A DNA stretch of 64,000 bases from a plasmid, in assembly GCF_056712565.1 (NCBI RefSeq), contig NZ_JBWXXM010000004.1, one strand, 5' to 3'. The notes under the pieces were generated by a model that was not told the origin of the DNA, searched no databases, and saw only the letters and a list, made by a program, of their open reading frames with translations. Made by a program: the position numbers and the translations under genes. Below are positions 28,292-35,341 of this stretch, one piece after another (positions within the stretch are counted from its first letter, which is position 1; every line of letters begins with the position of its first letter).

Positions 28292-28491
28292 CAATCGTAA
28301 AAACCCATACCGGTACCGTGATCACCAAAGATGGCCCGAAGGTAAAAAAACTGCACCAAACAGAGCGGATGTGGGTCGTTGGCAAAAACGAGTTTTACCA
28401 CAAAGAAACTGGACGCCGCCATTTTGCAGAAAATACGCGCCGCCGACTGCTGTTAGACACCATCAAGCCTATCGAGGTGAAGCATGTTTAA
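28288..28491 (+). CDS. Small hypothetical protein
   Basis: ATGA-coupled; 67 aa. Confidence 0.5.
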   Translation: MTIVKTHTGTVITKDGPKVKKLHQTERMWVVGKNEFYHKETGRRHFAENTRRRLLLDTIKPIEVKHV

Positions 28492-28723
28492 ACAGAACGA
28501 AAAAGCTATCGCTCAAATTGCTGATTATATCCCGCGTGCGTGCCGGGGTATGCAGTTGCAGGAAGCCAAAGCGCGCCTGGAGAAAAAAATTGCGCTCTAT
28601 ATTGATGACGGCTGTGATGCCGCCGTTCTTAACGCGGCGTTCGCACCAGCTCTTAACTGTCACACTCGGGAGTCTTTTTTTTCATGCATCGCAGCGCAAC
28701 TCCGCCAAGGAGGCAACCAGTGA
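28484..28723 (+). CDS. Small protein ending in IAAQLRQGGNQ (Ead/Ea22-type C-terminal tag)
   Basis: RBS GAGGTG. The C-terminal 11 aa and the following junction are duplicated at 29915-29950. Confidence 0.5.
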   Translation: MFKQNEKAIAQIADYIPRACRGMQLQEAKARLEKKIALYIDDGCDAAVLNAAFAPALNCHTRESFFSCIAAQLRQGGNQ

Positions 28724-29364
28724 GTAACCGTTTTTACATGATGTGCTTGCGTGAAATTGTGGGTAATAACGCCTCATTCCATTGCCATAACGGCAATGGT
28801 TACAGTTCTGATATCGATCGCGCTCATGTTTACACGCTGGAAGAAGGCCAAAAAGCCTGGAATTGTGGACGAGATATCGATCAGCCTGTTTGCGCTGATA
28901 GCGTGGATGCAATGGCTGTGTGGCACGTTGATTGCCAGTACATCCCTACAGAAAGCCTGATTGAGTCAGATTGCACTGCGTATGTGGCCTACAAAAAAGG
29001 TAGCTGGAACGGCAACGATGTTTACTGGCTTCAACACGGTGGATTGCCAACAGATGACTTCAGTAAAGCGACCATCTTTAGCGTCGCCAACAAAAACGAA
29101 CCAGGAATAGTTTGGTTGCCATTTTCCATTGCTGATTCAGCAAAGCGCCGGACGTTCAATATCAATAACTTTAACCGCAGAACAATGGTTCAGGGCGCAG
29201 GTTTGGTCATGCCTGACTGGTTGAAAAAGCAGAACAGAAGAAAGAAGTCGCGAAGCGGGAAGGTGCGTTGGAATTGTCCGCATTGCGGAAAAATTACCTG
29301 GCAGTACAGCCCATATGATTTTGAAGGCTGTCGTGATTACAACTGTGAAGGATGGCGAGAATGA
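28720..29364 (+). CDS. Cys-rich hypothetical protein
   Basis: GTGA-coupled start after AAGGAGG. The C-terminus has CPHCG..(n)..C..C. Confidence 0.5.
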   Translation: MSNRFYMMCLREIVGNNASFHCHNGNGYSSDIDRAHVYTLEEGQKAWNCGRDIDQPVCADSVDAMAVWHVDCQYIPTESLIESDCTAYVAYKKGSWNGNDVYWLQHGGLPTDDFSKATIFSVANKNEPGIVWLPFSIADSAKRRTFNINNFNRRTMVQGAGLVMPDWLKKQNRRKKSRSGKVRWNCPHCGKITWQYSPYDFEGCRDYNCEGWRE

Positions 29365-29948
29365 CAATTGACTATCAGGCACTGCGAGATGCGGCAGTTG
29401 CAGTAGAAACAGAACCTATGCATCAAAATTTTGTGGCGTTTCGTATGGCGTTCACGCCATCGGTGGCACTGGCACTACTGGATGAAATTAAGCGGCTGGA
29501 AGACACAAATATTGATGCTATGTGCCGTATTGCAGAGCTTGAGACTAATCTCGCGGCGCTGGTGGCAGAGAACGCCGGACTGAAACACGCAATGGCCGTA
29601 ACTCTTGAGCATGTGTCGGTCACGGATGCAGGGCAGGCCGGAGTTGCTGCAATGATTATCAACGATGCCCTGCACCACAGCGAAACTCCAGCTACCGATG
29701 CTTTTCTAGCTGAAGTGAAGACTGAAGCACGCAAGGAAGGCGCTTATTTTGTGGCGAACAGAATGCTGGCTGCCTGGGAAGCTGGTTTTATTGATGATAC
29801 CGCGAAGAACGCCGCGGATATTGCCCGGATGATTCTTACCTCTACTGAGTTTATGGCTAATGCGCCGGAAGGCGATTTTGACCGCTCATTCTCTGATGGC
29901 GTTCTCGAAGATATCGCCGCCCAGCTTCGAAAAGGAGGCAACCAGTGA
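29361..29948 (+). CDS. Ead/Ea22-like protein, paralogue 1
   Basis: MTIDYQALRDAA..VALALLDEIKRLE..AAQLRKGGNQ. Confidence 0.6.
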   Translation: MTIDYQALRDAAVAVETEPMHQNFVAFRMAFTPSVALALLDEIKRLEDTNIDAMCRIAELETNLAALVAENAGLKHAMAVTLEHVSVTDAGQAGVAAMIINDALHHSETPATDAFLAEVKTEARKEGAYFVANRMLAAWEAGFIDDTAKNAADIARMILTSTEFMANAPEGDFDRSFSDGVLEDIAAQLRKGGNQ

Positions 29949-30697
29949 GCAAGATTGACTATCAGGCACTGCGTGAGGCGGCGGAACGTGCAATTCCAGC
30001 AATGGAACGCCTGTTAATGTTGCCAGCTGATGATGATTTGTTAAGTGAACAGGAACTTAAAGATTACGGTGTGGATATTGATGCGCTCAACGCCTTCAAA
30101 TTTCTGGCCGGACCAGAAACCGTGCTGGCACTACTGGATGAACGGGAAAGAAACCAGCAATACATCAAACGCCGTGACCAGGAGAACGAGGATATTGCGC
30201 TAACGGTAGGGAAGCTGAGAGTTGAGCTTGAGGAAGTAAAACAACACGCTGAAGAATTATCCGAAACCAAGGCTGTTCGTAACCAATGGCGGCCAGATAT
30301 TTGCCCAATAACCGGACGTGCATTTTTCATGTGGATTGAGCATCCAACATTGGGAAATGTGCCGACATATGGTGGCCCATTAGATAGTTACACCATTCCA
30401 ACAAAGGACGGTGACGGTGAGTTTTCATGTGAGCGTTACGATCATGATTTTGGCGGTTGGGTAGAAAGCGAATGTCTTGGGTTATATCTGATTGATGATA
30501 GAGAACAATGCAGGGTCTACGAACTGGAGGAACGCGTTAAGGAACTGGATGCTCGGGAAATATCGCTCCCGGAACGTAGCAGCATGCTTCATCGAACAGA
30601 TTTTCACGATGATTACCAAACGGTAATGGCATACAAAGTTTCTGAGGTCATCGCTGCAATCCGCGCCGCTGGCATCCGTATCAACGGAGGTGAGTAG
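29945..30697 (+). CDS. Ead/Ea22-like protein, paralogue 2
   Basis: MSKIDYQALREAAERA..VLALLDERERN, with a GTG start. Confidence 0.6.
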   Translation: MSKIDYQALREAAERAIPAMERLLMLPADDDLLSEQELKDYGVDIDALNAFKFLAGPETVLALLDERERNQQYIKRRDQENEDIALTVGKLRVELEEVKQHAEELSETKAVRNQWRPDICPITGRAFFMWIEHPTLGNVPTYGGPLDSYTIPTKDGDGEFSCERYDHDFGGWVESECLGLYLIDDREQCRVYELEERVKELDAREISLPERSSMLHRTDFHDDYQTVMAYKVSEVIAAIRAAGIRINGGE

Positions 30698-33726: not shown

Positions 33727-33732
33727 ATTTAT

Positions 33733-34107
33733 ATGATGACACTAAAACATTTTCTTGACCGCCCATTATGGGCGGCAGCCGCAGGCTATGACTTTAATTA
33801 TATGGATTGCATGTCTTATACTGCCAATGCATACGACCATTCGTTCATCCTGCTGTTTAATTCTTTAAGAATATTGCCGGAAACAGAAGTTGGAGAGCTT
33901 CATTTATGGCTATTGGGCTTTATCGCGGCTGTCGTTGGTATTGCTGTATGGCCTTTTATTTTCTGGCTGGTGGCTGTTGTAGTGTGGTTTAAGTGCAAGA
34001 CATACCGGAAAAAGTATTTCTTAGGTGATGGAATGACTGATATTGCCAAAATGAACATTGAAGAATGGACTAAGGAATGTGAAAAGAAATGGCGCAAAAA
34101 GAAATGA
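33733..34107 (+). CDS. Membrane protein (124 aa)
   Basis: TM segment LWLLGFIAAVVGIAVWPFIFWLVAVVVWF and a Lys-rich tail. Confidence 0.5.
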   Translation: MMTLKHFLDRPLWAAAAGYDFNYMDCMSYTANAYDHSFILLFNSLRILPETEVGELHLWLLGFIAAVVGIAVWPFIFWLVAVVVWFKCKTYRKKYFLGDGMTDIAKMNIEEWTKECEKKWRKKK

Positions 34108-34739
34108 CCAGAATCACTGAAGAGCGCATATCAGAGATTATTTCCCGTATCGAAATGTATGGTCACGGTGCTGGATATACGGCAGATGAAGTATTGGAAA
34201 TAGCCCAGCAGATGCTGGCCTTGAGACAAAAAGAGCAACATGAAAGTAATACGTGTAGATTGAATTTTGAGCATTGGCTGGAACAGCAACGCGGAAAAAT
34301 CGATGTGGACTGTGGTTGTGTGTCCACTGAAACATTCATGCACTGGCTGCGGGTAGCTTACGAGGCTGGCAACTATCCGGATATTCCGGATAGTTCGGTG
34401 CCAGCGCCAGGAAAGGGCGTCACCGGTGAACGTATCCGCATTAAGCCGCATGTTTATCGCGAACTGGTTAACCGTCTCCACGATACAGCGATCAAGTGTG
34501 CTGGCACCCAGCAATTACGAGAAAGAATTAGCCGTGTTTTGGGCGACGTTATTACACCAGATCATCATAAACAAGCCGAGAAAAGTGACCTGGAAAGGTG
34601 TCACCTTGAGGCGGCATTAAACATTAAGCCGGGGCATACGCTTGGCATTATTGATGCACTATTGGTTCATAAGATGGCCAGGGCTTTATTGCCGCTGGTG
34701 GCTGAAAAGCATGAGGTGGACCATGCCAACGAAAGCTGA
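34104..34739 (+). CDS. Hypothetical protein (211 aa)
   Basis: ATGA-coupled start. Confidence 0.5.
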   Translation: MTRITEERISEIISRIEMYGHGAGYTADEVLEIAQQMLALRQKEQHESNTCRLNFEHWLEQQRGKIDVDCGCVSTETFMHWLRVAYEAGNYPDIPDSSVPAPGKGVTGERIRIKPHVYRELVNRLHDTAIKCAGTQQLRERISRVLGDVITPDHHKQAEKSDLERCHLEAALNIKPGHTLGIIDALLVHKMARALLPLVAEKHEVDHANES

Positions 34740-35006
34740 ATTACAGGTGCGCGTAGATGAGCTGAAAAAGAGAACGCGAGCCTCAAAAAAATGCTGTCGC
34801 GGGCGGAAAGGGAATTATCAGGCAAATTATTGCCAGAAGAACTGCCACCAGCAGATATACTAGATCGAGTGTCCCAGTGGATGAAGTCTTTTGGTTTACC
34901 GTGGGAGGCTTTTTGGTGCTACGACCATCGCAGATGGTGTGATGAACTTGATAGCAATTTTCCCTACTTTGCGGAAGGGAACACCTGCCCTCAATGCAGG
35001 GGATAG
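34723..35006 (+). pseudogene. Small CxxC protein split at an A7 tract (-1 frame change needed)
   Basis: Frame 1 reads MPTKAELQVRVDELKKRTRASKK up to the A7 run at 34785-34791. The -1 frame continues MLSRAERELSGKLL..CPQCRG. Confidence 0.45.
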
Positions 35007-35341
35007 CATTTGACGAAATCGATCACCCTATCCTGAACTTCAGAAAGAAGGTCTTTTTCACGCGCCAGGACGTCAGGATATTGACGTTCTGGCCTTACCA
35101 GATGCCGGAGCTTCCCATTAAGCAGAATGGCCTCAGAAAACACTTTTACGCTGTGCTTTATCCCCTCTGTTTCACTTTTCAGCGTCAAAATAAAGCGCAA
35201 TTGCTTATTAGCCTGATTCGGATTCAATACACGAATTTGCAGTTCGTCTATGCTGTTTCGCAATGGGATTGATGCCACCACACTGGTGCAGTCTCTGATT
35301 GTCTGAATTGAACGGCTAACATTGAGAACGTTATTGTGCAT
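34991..35341 (-). CDS. Hypothetical 116-aa protein, the only minus-strand gene in the 20.9-41.4 kb plus-strand block
   Basis: Clean ORF divergent from hot. I recognise no motif in it. Confidence 0.5.
   Translation of the reverse strand: MHNNVLNVSRSIQTIRDCTSVVASIPLRNSIDELQIRVLNPNQANKQLRFILTLKSETEGIKHSVKVFSEAILLNGKLRHLVRPERQYPDVLAREKDLLSEVQDRVIDFVKCYPLH

What the first reader, a model, noticed from the sequence alone, without database searches (positions are those of the whole stretch)
28484..35341. Accessory island of about 6 kb between the pmg block and hot, larger than the corresponding P1 segment
Between the PAPS-reductase-like gene cluster and hot, I recall P1 having only three small upf genes. 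Here there are roughly 18 tightly coupled ORFs:
- two Ead/Ea22-like paralogues
- a Cys-rich protein
- three small, very basic proteins
- a PD-(D/E)xK nuclease-like protein coupled to a 399-aa unknown
- an AT-rich run of small membrane proteins
- a split CxxC gene
- a lone opposite-strand gene

Most junctions are ATGA, GTGA or TAATG overlaps, which is typical of phage moron or early-region cassettes.

This is the part of the window where uncharacterised host-takeover, exclusion or anti-defence functions are most likely to be found.
Basis: partly seen in the sequence, partly recalled or inferred. Interest (0 to 1): 0.5.

Follow-up and report, generated by a model that had tools for sequence, protein, structure and literature searches.

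The report
P1-family variable early accessory operon
This stretch is the already-described hypervariable accessory-gene operon of P1-like phage-plasmids, built partly from cassettes shared with lambda-like prophages; the unusual genome is laboratory phage P1, which lost about 5 kb of this operon by deletion.

Summary
Between pap (26130-26636) and hot (35374-35625) the window has about 8.7 kb and about 20 tightly packed genes. P1 has 2.3 kb there. A P1-type genome contains none of 17 of these proteins anywhere.

- 580 PLSDB plasmids carry the pmgS-pap backbone, but only 5 carry P1's pmgT junction.
- P1 equals a pRM10386-1-like arrangement minus 5,177 bp.
- That deletion fused an ASCH gene out of frame to the middle of a Q-type gene, so pmgT and pmgU are a deletion scar.

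The long array is therefore the family norm. It is published as "variable region 8" of P1-like phage-plasmids, and the P7 record annotates the corresponding stretch as an operon it calls "hea".

A single C1 operator identical to P1 Op88 sits upstream. The array is most likely a C1-repressed early operon.

- **Left half (27413-32945):** 92-98% identical to exo-xis DNA of Stx prophages.
- **Right half:** specific to the P1 family.

The genes are under purifying selection (pN/pS about 0.19), and all their families are of unknown function. One is a PD-(D/E)xK nuclease, one is a confidently modelled zinc-ribbon protein with no known fold, one is a frameshifted pseudogene and one is a chimera. No defence or anti-defence function was detected.

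The parts
26636..26652 (+). C1 repressor operator, identical to P1 Op88/OpmgT (ATTGCTCTAATAAATCT)
   Evidence: Pattern search. There is no other operator-like site until 38069. The P1 annotation of Op88 is, and the sequence is identical.
26652..26680 (+). Promoter equivalent to P1 P1pmgT: -35 TTGATT (26652-26657), 17-nt spacer, -10 GAAAAT (26675-26680). It overlaps the operator.
   Evidence: Sequence. Homology to the annotated P1 promoter, within the 95% identical block 26001-26922. Function is inferred.
26685..26707 (.). 10-bp GC-rich hairpin at the predicted 5' end of the operon transcript. It reads as a terminator only on the minus strand.
   Evidence: Its role is unknown.
26735..26821 (+). 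Unannotated 28-aa hydrophobic leader ORF with a strong AGGAG Shine-Dalgarno sequence
   Evidence: KD19 2.10. It is 100% identical at the amino-acid level in a P1-type plasmid.
26831..27409 (+). Gene A: ASCH-domain protein (192 aa). It is the intact counterpart of the N-terminal 230 aa of P1 PmgT, as a divergent allele.
   Evidence: PGAP name, phrog_874.
27413..28291 (+). Gene B: PAPS-reductase-like PP-loop protein (292 aa)
   Evidence: Pfam PF01507, 37.7 bits against a cut-off of 22.5, N-terminal part only. phrog_424. 92% identical DNA in an Stx phage.
28288..28491 (+). Gene C (67 aa, pI 10.3)
   Evidence: phrog_1226. pN/pS 0.13 against the Stx phage.
28484..28723 (+). Gene D (79 aa). Its 3' end carries copy 1 of a 40-nt gene-boundary repeat.
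   Evidence: phrog_1344. Repeat D3.
28720..29364 (+). Gene E (214 aa, 10 Cys). It has a C-terminal CxxC...C...C zinc ribbon and no recognisable fold. It corresponds to P7 Upf87.6.
29361..29948 (+). Gene F: Ead/Ea22-like protein (195 aa)
   Evidence: Pfam PF13935, 41.1 bits.
29945..30697 (+). Gene G: Ead/Ea22-like protein (250 aa)
   Evidence: Pfam PF13935, 104.4 bits.
30697..31231 (+). Genes H (30697-30873), I (30870-31046) and J (31043-31231): three basic proteins of 58-62 aa. I and J are paralogues. The copy number varies between relatives.
   Evidence: Repeat D8.
31233..31748 (+). Gene K: PD-(D/E)xK nuclease (171 aa) with invariant E37, D40, E53 and K55. It corresponds to P7 Upf89.0.
31745..32944 (+). 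ORF L (399 aa): in-frame chimera of a DUF551-type N-terminus, a DUF551 fragment, a phrog_14306 segment and eaa (32684-32944)
   Evidence: The exact sequence is on 222 contigs.
32983..32999 (+). Weak terminator-like hairpin with a T-run, at the boundary between the two halves
   Evidence: The count of such sites is not above chance.
33021..34107 (+). AT-rich block: M (33021-33254, acidic and soluble), N (33303-33425, one hydrophobic span), O (33433-33726, soluble), P (33733-34107, hydrophobic span)
   Evidence: Found only in P1-family records.
34089..34739 (+). Gene Q (216 aa). Its C-terminal 111 aa correspond to P1 PmgU. The central part varies in length among relatives (216-538 aa).
34723..35006 (+). 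Gene R: frameshifted copy of a 94-aa CxxC gene, with a 1-nt deletion after 34762. The residual ORF is 34791-35006.
34991..35341 (-). Gene S (116 aa): lone minus-strand gene, convergent with R (16-nt overlap) and divergent from hot (32 nt)
   Evidence: phrog_2594. In all 8 places sampled it sits next to hot in a P1-like context.
35374..35625 (+). hot (theta-subunit homologue): right-hand anchor. The allele is 84.7% identical to P1's.
35711..35730 (+). LexA box TACTGTATGAATAAACAGTA before humD (35749-36138). P1's lxr is absent here.

Best explanation
The segment is the pap-to-hot accessory operon of P1-like phage-plasmids. It has been published as "variable region 8", and the P7 record annotates the corresponding stretch as an operon it calls "hea".

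**Shown**
- It sits in a conserved P1 backbone, directly downstream of a C1 operator identical to P1 Op88.
- It contains about 19 same-strand genes that mostly overlap, with no further operator.
- The genes are conserved under purifying selection.
- The content differs in almost every relative. Homology breakpoints are enriched at gene boundaries and at short repeats between paralogues.
- The left half (27413-32945) is 92-98% identical to the exo-xis region of Stx and lambdoid prophages.
- The right half (33021-35341) occurs only in the P1 family.
- P1's short version arose from a 5,177-bp deletion with 2-nt microhomology. The deletion fused the ASCH gene out of frame into the middle of a Q-type gene.

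**Inferred**
- In the plasmid-prophage state C1 keeps the operon off.
- On induction or infection it is transcribed as one early polycistronic message and translated by coupling.
- Its products are dispensable modulators of host and phage nucleic-acid metabolism and of the lysis-lysogeny decision. They include an ASCH protein, a PP-loop enzyme, two Ea22-type coiled-coil proteins, a structure-specific PD-(D/E)xK nuclease, a zinc-ribbon protein and small basic and membrane proteins.
- New combinations arise by recombination with resident lambdoid prophages at conserved gene-boundary sequences, and by illegitimate deletions.
For: - **Backbone synteny and operator:**
- **Coupling:**
- **No internal operators, and fewer promoter-like sites than chance:**
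- **Real genes:**. Pooled pN/pS is 0.19.
- **Variability:**
  - Only 8 of 921 matching plasmids cover at least 80% of the query.
  - Only 6 genomes do so.
  - The 8 places sampled show 8 different architectures.
  - 15 of 36 breakpoints lie within 25 nt of a gene boundary, against 14.4% expected (p = 6e-5).
- **Lambdoid origin of the left half:**
  - The genes lie between exo/ssb and int in phage Lyz12581Vzw.
  - Window 28704-31890 is collinear at 97-98% (F gene 91%) with an Stx2c prophage, next to its int.
- **Right half only in the P1 family:**
- **P1 is the derived state:** the junction is in 5 plasmids and the backbone in 580. P1 equals pRM10386-1 minus 5,177 bp.
- **Dispensability:** P1 pmgT-upfO, hot, lxr and humD scored nonessential by CRISPRi and by deletions (PMC10695390).
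- **Prior description:** PMC9603915 and the P7 record's "Op(hea) ... hea operon" annotation.
- **Ea22 precedent:** lambda ea22 favours lysogeny (PMC7093339 abstract).
Against: - No transcription data were examined. C1 control and single-operon status rest on operator identity and on simple motif scans.
- A weak terminator-like hairpin at 32983-32999 and 48-76-nt gaps in the AT-rich half could mean two or more transcription units.
- Gene S is on the other strand and has no identified promoter.
- P1's late promoter LPhot has no counterpart here.
- The function of every gene is inferred from weak or fold-level similarity, or is unknown.
- One gene is frameshifted and one is chimeric, so part of the array may be decaying.
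Confidence: 0.8

Rival explanations
1. This is an acquired island. The ancestral P1-like state is short, as in P1, and this plasmid gained a cassette of about 6-7 kb by insertion.
For: - The left half is nearly identical to DNA of lambdoid prophages, so at least those cassettes were exchanged horizontally at some time.
- GC content changes inside the region.
Against: - P1's pmgT lacks the last codons and the stop of the intact ASCH gene and reads out of frame into a Q-type gene. pmgU is the in-frame C-terminal remnant of that gene.
- P1 aligns to pRM10386-1 as two blocks of 97-98% identity that abut with a 2-nt overlap, skipping 5,177 bp.
- Only 5 plasmids carry that junction, against 580 with the backbone.
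- There is no integrase, transposase or flanking direct repeat.
Confidence: 0.07
2. The operon's main selective value is counter-defence or host takeover. One or more of the unknown early proteins (E, K, H/I/J, B) would inhibit host immunity or redirect host DNA or RNA metabolism during infection.
For: - The position is early and C1-repressed.
- Turnover between relatives is very high.
- The genes are dispensable in the laboratory.
- They are under purifying selection.
- Other occupants of the same slot include lambdoid NinE, NinF and YqaJ. One relative carries a Tad2-like gene beyond doc, outside the slot.
- The PP-loop protein is weakly similar to DNA-sulfur-modification enzymes.
Against: - No protein matches a characterised anti-defence family in Pfam, PHROGs, NCBIfam or PDB.
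- No anti-defence HMM library was available.
- The only experimentally studied relative, lambda Ea22, affects the lysis-lysogeny choice, not immunity.
Confidence: 0.25
3. These are lysogenic-conversion or superinfection-exclusion morons expressed from the plasmid prophage.
For: - Two small membrane proteins, N and P.
- Gene S is on the opposite strand and outside the C1-controlled unit.
- The right half is AT-rich.
Against: - The plus-strand genes lie behind a C1 operator, with no internal sigma-70-like sites above chance.
- The genes overlap rather than being flanked by their own promoter and terminator.
- There are no PADLOC hits.
Confidence: 0.08
4. These are virion morphogenesis genes, as the historical "pmg" (putative morphogenetic) labels suggest.
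For: Only the P1 and RCS47 annotations, "putative morphogenetic function".
Against: - P1 makes virions without 17 of these genes.
- P1 pmgT, pmgU and pmgV are nonessential.
- The homologues sit in the early recombination region of lambdoid phages, not in late operons.
Confidence: 0.02
5. The array is decaying, functionless filler DNA.
For: - Gene R is frameshifted.
- ORF L is chimeric, and PGAP makes pseudogene calls in it.
- P1 tolerates a natural 5-kb deletion.
Against: - Pooled pN/pS is 0.19, and gene K has 0 nonsynonymous against 17 synonymous differences.
- Reading frames are intact and coupled.
- The families extend across Enterobacterales and beyond.
Confidence: 0.05

Closest known systems
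Variable region 8 of P1-like phage-plasmids (pmgT-pmgU-pmgV-upfM/N/O-hot-lxr-humD; PMC9603915) and the operon that the P7 record calls "hea", behind Op(hea) (AF503408/NC_050152)
   Same: - Same backbone position, downstream of pap and the Op88-type C1 operator.
- Shared genes with P7 at 96-98.6% identity: ASCH (Upf86.8), E (Upf87.6), Ead (Upf88.3), K (Upf89.0), and the L/Q modules (Upf89.5).
   Different: - This variant adds the PAPS-reductase trio B-C-D, a second Ead gene, the H-I-J basic proteins, the AT-rich block M-P, and R and S.
- It lacks P7's IS903, Upf93.6/94.2 and P1's lxr.
- P7 has a single hybrid Ead gene where this window has two.
The exo-xis ("ea") early-left region of lambdoid phages (lambda ea22 and neighbours; P22 ea genes; Stx phages)
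   Same: - Ead/Ea22 family genes, DUF551, eaa, the PAPS-reductase-like gene and the K nuclease occur there in the same order and at 92-98% DNA identity.
- The genes are nonessential and early, with overlapping small ORFs.
- The region is mosaic at gene boundaries.
   Different: - Here the cassette is in a P1 myovirus-plasmid backbone and sits behind a P1 C1 operator, not lambda pL/CI.
- It is not flanked by exo/bet or int/xis.
- The characterised lambda genes orf60a, orf61, orf63 and ea8.5 were not detected.
P1 pmgT / pmgU
   Same: - PmgT residues 1 to about 230 are an allele of gene A (ASCH).
- PmgU is the C-terminal 111 aa of a Q-type protein, 95.7% identical in DNA to window 34358-34704.
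   Different: - In P1 these are the two sides of a deletion scar.
- The ASCH gene lost its last codons and its stop, and reads about 75 codons out of frame.
- Here both genes are intact and 6.7 kb apart.
PD-(D/E)xK nucleases of the SPO1766 (PDB 3DNX) type, with more distant similarity to archaeal Hjc resolvases and type II restriction endonucleases. To my recollection 3DNX represents the MmcB-like family; MmcB is a PD-(D/E)XK endonuclease (PMC9578287).
   Same: - Gene K has invariant E-x2-D ... E-x-K residues.
- It shares the D..IE(A/C)K.SR.DF.AD motif with SPO1766.
   Different: - No Pfam family reaches its threshold. The best is Hjc at E = 0.018, in 15 of 30 members.
- There is an extra C-terminal region of about 60 aa with low model confidence.
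- The context is a phage early operon, not an SOS regulon.

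Membership tests
P1-family variable region 8 / P7 "hea" operon | Located between pap and hot/humD in a P1-like backbone | tested here: met
   Flanks are 95% identical to P1 (26001-26922 and 35696-36300). The order pmgS, pap, hot, humD, phd, doc is conserved.
P1-family variable region 8 / P7 "hea" operon | C1 operator (Op88/OpmgT/Op(hea)) and promoter immediately upstream | tested here: met
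   The 17-mer at 26636-26652 is identical to P1 Op88. The next operator-like site is at 38069. C1 binding was not tested.
P1-family variable region 8 / P7 "hea" operon | Gene content varies among otherwise conserved P1-like elements | tested here: met
   Literature.
P1-family variable region 8 / P7 "hea" operon | Dispensable for lytic growth and plasmid maintenance | not testable with these tools
   Indirect support only: P1 and 5 wild plasmids lack 5.2 kb of it, and the P1 remnants are nonessential.
Lambdoid exo-xis / ea region cassette | Contains Ead/Ea22-family genes and associated small ORFs | tested here: met
   PF13935 above threshold in F and G. PGAP annotates DUF551 and eaa fragments.
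Lambdoid exo-xis / ea region cassette | Homologous DNA lies between the recombination genes and int/xis of lambdoid prophages | tested here: met
   Lyz12581Vzw: between exo/ssb and int. Stx2c phage: directly upstream of int.
Lambdoid exo-xis / ea region cassette | Flanked by exo/bet (or recT) and xis/int, and transcribed from pL | tested here: not met
   Here the flanks are P1 pap and hot, and the upstream control element is a P1 C1 operator. It is a transplanted cassette, not an exo-xis region in place.
PD-(D/E)xK nuclease superfamily (gene K) | Conserved acidic and lysine catalytic motif (E/D ... D ... E-x-K) | tested here: met
   E37, D40, E53 and K55 are invariant in 30 sequences down to 59% identity.
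PD-(D/E)xK nuclease superfamily (gene K) | Restriction-endonuclease-like alpha/beta core fold | tested here: met
   [not shown]
PD-(D/E)xK nuclease superfamily (gene K) | Membership of a curated subfamily (MmcB-like, Hjc, VRR-NUC and others) | tested here: not met
   No Pfam or NCBIfam hit at threshold. Hjc appears at E >= 0.018 in 15 of 30 members.
PD-(D/E)xK nuclease superfamily (gene K) | Nuclease activity | not testable with these tools
   Needs biochemistry.
PAPS reductase / PP-loop ATP pyrophosphatase (gene B) | PP-loop SGGxxS motif and N-terminal Rossmann-like domain | tested here: met
   PF01507, 37.7 bits (cut-off 22.5), over residues 6-72. The motif SGGRTS is visible in the translation.
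PAPS reductase / PP-loop ATP pyrophosphatase (gene B) | Full-length similarity to CysH-type PAPS reductases (sulfate assimilation) | tested here: not met
   Only 66 of 175 profile positions match. NCBIfam CysH scores 22 bits against a cut-off of 154. PDB hits have E about 0.01.
Known anti-phage defence systems | Match to a PADLOC model set | tested here: not met
   Of 10 proteins scanned, only B gives weak SspD, BrxP and DndC hits (E 1.6e-13 to 3e-4), with no partner genes.
Phage moron | Own promoter and terminator, expressed independently of the surrounding operon | tested here: not met
   Start and stop codons overlap. Promoter-like sites number 7 against 14.4 expected, with none strong on the plus strand inside. 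This was a simple consensus scan only.
Known anti-defence proteins | Homology to a characterised anti-restriction, anti-CRISPR or anti-CBASS/Thoeris protein | not tested
   No dedicated library was available. Pfam, PHROGs and PDB gave nothing of this kind.

The most novel reading that the evidence does not exclude
Laboratory P1 is a natural deletion mutant of an early operon that wild P1-like phage-plasmids keep. One or more of the lost or variable proteins would perform a host-takeover or counter-defence function not yet described. The candidates are the zinc-ribbon protein E with no recognisable fold, the invariant-motif nuclease K with its DUF551 partner, and the basic H/I/J proteins. If so, decades of P1 genetics would have missed it, and the operon's rapid cassette exchange with Stx prophages would reflect an arms race.
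Probability: 0.2. Interest if true: 0.6.

Novelty: already known. Interest (0 to 1): 0.25.

Why it matters
This is ordinary phage mosaicism in a place where it has already been described, so it changes little by itself.

Three points have practical value:
1. P1 pmgT and pmgU should be read as a deletion scar, not as genes with a morphogenetic role. Laboratory P1 is an atypical, reduced representative of its family at this locus.
2. The left half shows recent DNA exchange at 97-98% identity between P1-like plasmids and Stx-converting prophages. This is one concrete route of gene flow between phage-plasmids and integrated phages in pathogenic E. coli.
3. The operon offers a short list of widespread, selected, uncharacterised early proteins for experiments. 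These include a PD-(D/E)xK nuclease family without a Pfam model and a 214-aa zinc-ribbon family with no structural relatives.

Tried and rejected
**Family and structure searches that found nothing**
- Pfam, NCBIfam and PADLOC gave nothing beyond PAPS_reduct and Ead_Ea22.
- Sequence searches of PDB for A, B, E, K, Q and S gave no significant match.
- The afdb50 library was unavailable.

**Ideas tested and dropped**
- Gene S as a homologue of P7 Upf93.6: rejected (BLASTP E = 1.2).
- A P1-type late promoter upstream of hot or inside the island: none found with a -22-box regex.
- The frameshift of R lying in the A7 run: rejected. It is a missing T after 34762.
- Flanking direct or inverted repeats that would mark a mobile island: none found.

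**Literature**
- A search for a known function of the phage PAPS-reductase-like gene found nothing relevant.
- The P1 genome paper could not be read. PMC523184, the id I recalled for Lobocka 2004, is not held. I therefore do not know whether the deletion origin of pmgT was noted there.

**Caps left unused**
- The expected return (unnamed hypothetical proteins) did not justify the cost.

Full report
**What the window is**

The window is a P1-like phage-plasmid of E. coli.
- Positions 28000-36000 are 100% identical to five PLSDB plasmids of 93-100 kb, for example NZ_CP134391.1 pMTY10828_p0111.
- The surrounding genes are pmgS, pap, hot, humD, phd, doc, pdcB, lpa and pacA, in P1 order.

**Checking the observation**

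The ORF list and a junction analysis give a same-strand array downstream of pap (26130-26636):

| Gene | Coordinates | Description |
|---|---|---|
| leader ORF | 26735-26821 | 28 aa, hydrophobic |
| A | 26831-27409 | ASCH domain (PGAP name) |
| B | 27413-28291 | PAPS-reductase-like |
| C | 28288-28491 | 67 aa |
| D | 28484-28723 | 79 aa |
| E | 28720-29364 | 10 Cys |
| F | 29361-29948 | Ead/Ea22 |
| G | 29945-30697 | Ead/Ea22 |
| H, I, J | 30697-31231 | 58-62 aa, pI 11.3-12.0 |
| K | 31233-31748 | nuclease |
| L | 31745-32944 | 399 aa |
| M | 33021-33254 | AT-rich block |
| N | 33303-33425 | AT-rich block |
| O | 33433-33726 | AT-rich block |
| P | 33733-34107 | AT-rich block |
| Q | 34089-34739 | 216 aa |
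| R | 34723-35006 | frameshifted |
| S | 34991-35341 | minus strand |

hot follows at 35374.

- Seven of the ten junctions from B to L are ATGA or GTGA overlaps.
- Every ORF matches a PHROG family with a strong E-value. All are "unknown function" except B.
- Each of the 10 protein sequences looked up (A, E, H, I, J, K, L, P, Q and S) is present in public assemblies, nine of them on hundreds to more than 1000 contigs.
- Against P7, RCS47, an Stx phage and pRM10386-1 the pooled pN/pS is 0.19.

These are real genes under selection.

**Comparison with P1**

[quoted passage not shown] The pap-to-hot distance is 2.3 kb.

blastn aligns only these window segments to P1:
- 26001-26922 (95%)
- two short weak pieces within A
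- 34358-34704 (95.7%, corresponding to the pmgT 3' end and pmgU)
- 34723-34748
- hot (84.7%)
- 35696 onward

To exclude relocation elsewhere in the genome, I ran all 21 proteins by tblastn against a complete wild P1-type plasmid. This plasmid is pEH09-18-41_2, 99.5% identical to P1 78000-94800. Only the leader ORF, A (43%), the C-terminus of Q and hot are present. The other 17 are absent.

Three corrections are needed:
1. The P1-absent DNA begins near 27241, so the PAPS-reductase cluster is part of it.
2. Only N and P have hydrophobic spans. M and O are soluble.
3. L is a chimera (see below).

**Which state is derived?**

The P1 junction reads ...AATCCCTGGGTT|ACGAGGCTGGCAACTATCC.
- The left side continues in intact ASCH genes as ...TGGGTTTGGGTAATCGAG...stop.
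- The right side lies in the middle of Q-type genes, at ...GTAGCTTACGAGGCTGGCAAC.

PmgT is therefore an ASCH protein that lost its last codons and reads about 75 codons out of frame. PmgU is the in-frame C-terminal 111 aa of Q.

Plasmid pRM10386-1 carries P1's own ASCH allele intact (241 aa). It also has a 310-aa Q gene, a pmgV homologue and hot. P1 83700-85183 and 85182-86833 align to it at 97.2% and 97.8%. The two blocks abut with a 2-nt overlap and skip 5,177 bp.

In PLSDB, a 160-nt probe across the P1 junction is complete in 5 records. In the other records listed the match stops exactly at the junction. The pmgS-pap backbone is at least 80% present in 580 records. The long array is the family norm, and P1 is a rare deletion derivative.

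**What the region is**

The literature already lists pmgT-pmgU-pmgV-upfM/N/O-hot-lxr-humD as one of eight highly variable regions of P1-like phage-plasmids (PMC9603915). The P7 record annotates "Op(hea) ... hea operon" at this position. P1's remnants are nonessential by CRISPRi and deletion (PMC10695390).

In the window, the 17-mer at 26636-26652 is identical to Op88. A -35/-10 pair homologous to P1pmgT overlaps it. No other operator-like site occurs before 38069. Promoter-like sites inside are fewer than chance, 7 against 14.4.

The most economical reading is one early operon repressed by C1. This is inferred, not shown. A weak hairpin at 32983-32999 and the intergenic gaps in the AT-rich half leave room for a second transcription unit.

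**Mosaic structure**

Left half (27413-32945):
- It is shared with Stx-converting and other lambdoid phages.
- In phage Lyz12581Vzw the order PAPS-reductase, 67 aa, 79 aa, Ead, K, DUF551, eaa lies between exo/ssb and int. That is the exo-xis region.
- An Stx2c prophage is collinear with 28704-31890 at 97-98% (F gene 91%), next to its integrase.

Right half (32950-35370):
- It matches only 16 phage records. All are P1-family phages or D6.

Variation across relatives:
- Pieces of the region occur in 3571 of 5426 complete E. coli genomes, mostly on chromosomes. Only 6 genomes have at least 80% of this arrangement.
- The eight places sampled through gene S all show different left-hand gene sets. 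One of them contains NinE, NinF and YqaJ.
- Against five comparators, 15 of 36 homology breakpoints lie within 25 nt of a gene boundary, where 14.4% is expected (p = 6e-5).

Short repeats explain several joints:
- A 40-nt boundary sequence is repeated at D/E and F/G.
- An 18-nt identity between the two Ead genes accounts for P7's single hybrid Ead.
- A 21-nt repeat at the starts of I and J accounts for the copy-number variation of the basic proteins.

**Individual genes**

*Gene K*
- It has 324 homologous clusters across Enterobacterales and no Pfam domain.
- E37, D40, E53 and K55 are invariant.
- The AF2 model has pLDDT 69.5.
- A family profile aligns to 3dnx over the D..IExK.SR.DF.AD motif.
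- Fifteen of 30 members weakly hit Pfam Hjc.
- It has 17 synonymous and 0 nonsynonymous differences from P7 and the Stx phage.
A role in cleaving structured DNA is my inference.
- PGAP nevertheless labels its 5' part "frameshifted".

*Gene E*
- It has 123 clusters, reaching Yersinia, Pantoea, Acinetobacter and a Methyloprofundus genome.
- It has an invariant C-terminal Cys4 ribbon.
- It has no recognisable fold.

*ORF L*
- It is an in-frame chimera. PGAP calls three fragments plus eaa.
- Homology blocks switch partners at 31890, 32177 and 32634.
- The exact sequence is on 222 contigs.

*Gene R*
- It lacks one T after 34762.
- Restoring that base gives the 94-aa protein found intact in seven related loci.

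*Gene S*
- In all 8 places sampled it sits between R and hot in a P1-like context.
- It has no detectable relatives of known function.

*Defence*
- No protein matches a defence system, apart from weak PP-loop similarity of B to SspD, DndC and BrxP.

**Mechanism**

The following are established here:
- the position of the region
- the operator
- coupling between genes
- purifying selection
- the mosaicism
- the deletion origin of P1's version

The following are inferred:
- C1 keeps the operon silent in lysogens.
- It is expressed early after derepression.
- It supplies dispensable modulators, by analogy with the lambdoid exo-xis region. There, ea22 favours lysogeny and other genes favour lytic growth (PMC7093339).
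- New combinations come from recombination with resident lambdoid prophages.

A counter-defence role is possible but has no direct support. Exclusion by the plus-strand genes is unlikely, given their repression. A morphogenetic role is excluded for practical purposes, because P1 assembles virions without them.

**Verdict**

It is reversed in direction, because P1 lost DNA rather than this plasmid gaining an island. The feature is already described, so interest is low to moderate.

Noticed in passing
window 26735-26821 (+): An unannotated 28-aa hydrophobic ORF (MNTAFKIIMAAIYFWLFSITFGGIVAHG) with an AGGAG Shine-Dalgarno sequence. It is the first cistron after the Op88 promoter. It is 100% identical at the amino-acid level in a P1-type plasmid and differs by one synonymous base from P1. 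It is not annotated in P1, P7 or the RefSeq plasmids.
   Followed up: partly
window 26685-26707: A perfect 10-bp GC-rich hairpin (ACATGCCGCaagGCGCGGCATGT) at the predicted 5' end of the operon transcript. It could be an mRNA-stabilising or regulatory structure. It scores as a terminator only on the opposite strand.
   Followed up: no
[not shown]
   Followed up: partly
window 31233-31411 (+) / L006 5434-5612: RefSeq/PGAP marks the 5' part of gene K as a "frameshifted" pseudogene. Yet the 171-aa ORF is intact, occurs on more than 1000 contigs and has 0 nonsynonymous against 17 synonymous differences from relatives. This is probably an annotation artefact caused by reference proteins that fuse J and K (phrog_9263).
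   Followed up: partly
window 35626-35748, against P1 86834-87529: P1's LexA-regulated lxr gene (minus strand, between hot and humD) is absent here. It is replaced by a 123-nt spacer that keeps the LexA box (35711-35730). The hot allele is only 84.7% identical to P1's, while the flanks are about 95%.
   Followed up: partly
L015 196-636 (NCBI GCA_006230595.1 contig SPVY01000133.1): In one relative the genes beyond doc (pdcA, pdcB, lpa in P1) are replaced by a dUTPase, a Tad2-like protein (PF11195) and two unknown genes. This may be an anti-Thoeris-type gene in a neighbouring variable slot of a P1-like element.
   Followed up: no
L013 6752-8351 (CP178336.1, E. coli chromosome-size record): Another relative carries lambdoid nin-region genes (NinE, NinF) and a YqaJ exonuclease in the same pap-hot slot. 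Cassettes from several lambdoid regions, not only exo-xis, can therefore land here. Several S-containing contigs are megabase-sized, which suggests integrated P1-like elements or assembly joins.
   Followed up: no
L017 6238-7548 (Stx2c phage LC645426): An insert of about 1.3 kb with 108-aa and 296-aa ORFs, probably an IS element, interrupts the otherwise collinear H-I junction of the Stx2c prophage copy of this cassette.
   Followed up: no
window, whole 64 kb: There are 15 matches to the P1 C1-operator consensus with up to 3 mismatches, where 0.33 is expected. They include paired sites at 10804/10815, 24495/24544 and 42806/42889. The C1 regulon layout of P1 appears to be conserved across the window.
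   Followed up: no
L019 339-1598 (pEH09-18-41_2): In a wild P1-type plasmid the PLSDB/RefSeq gene table lists no protein for the pmgT-pmgU interval. This is consistent with PGAP treating the deletion scar as non-coding or pseudogenic.
   Followed up: no
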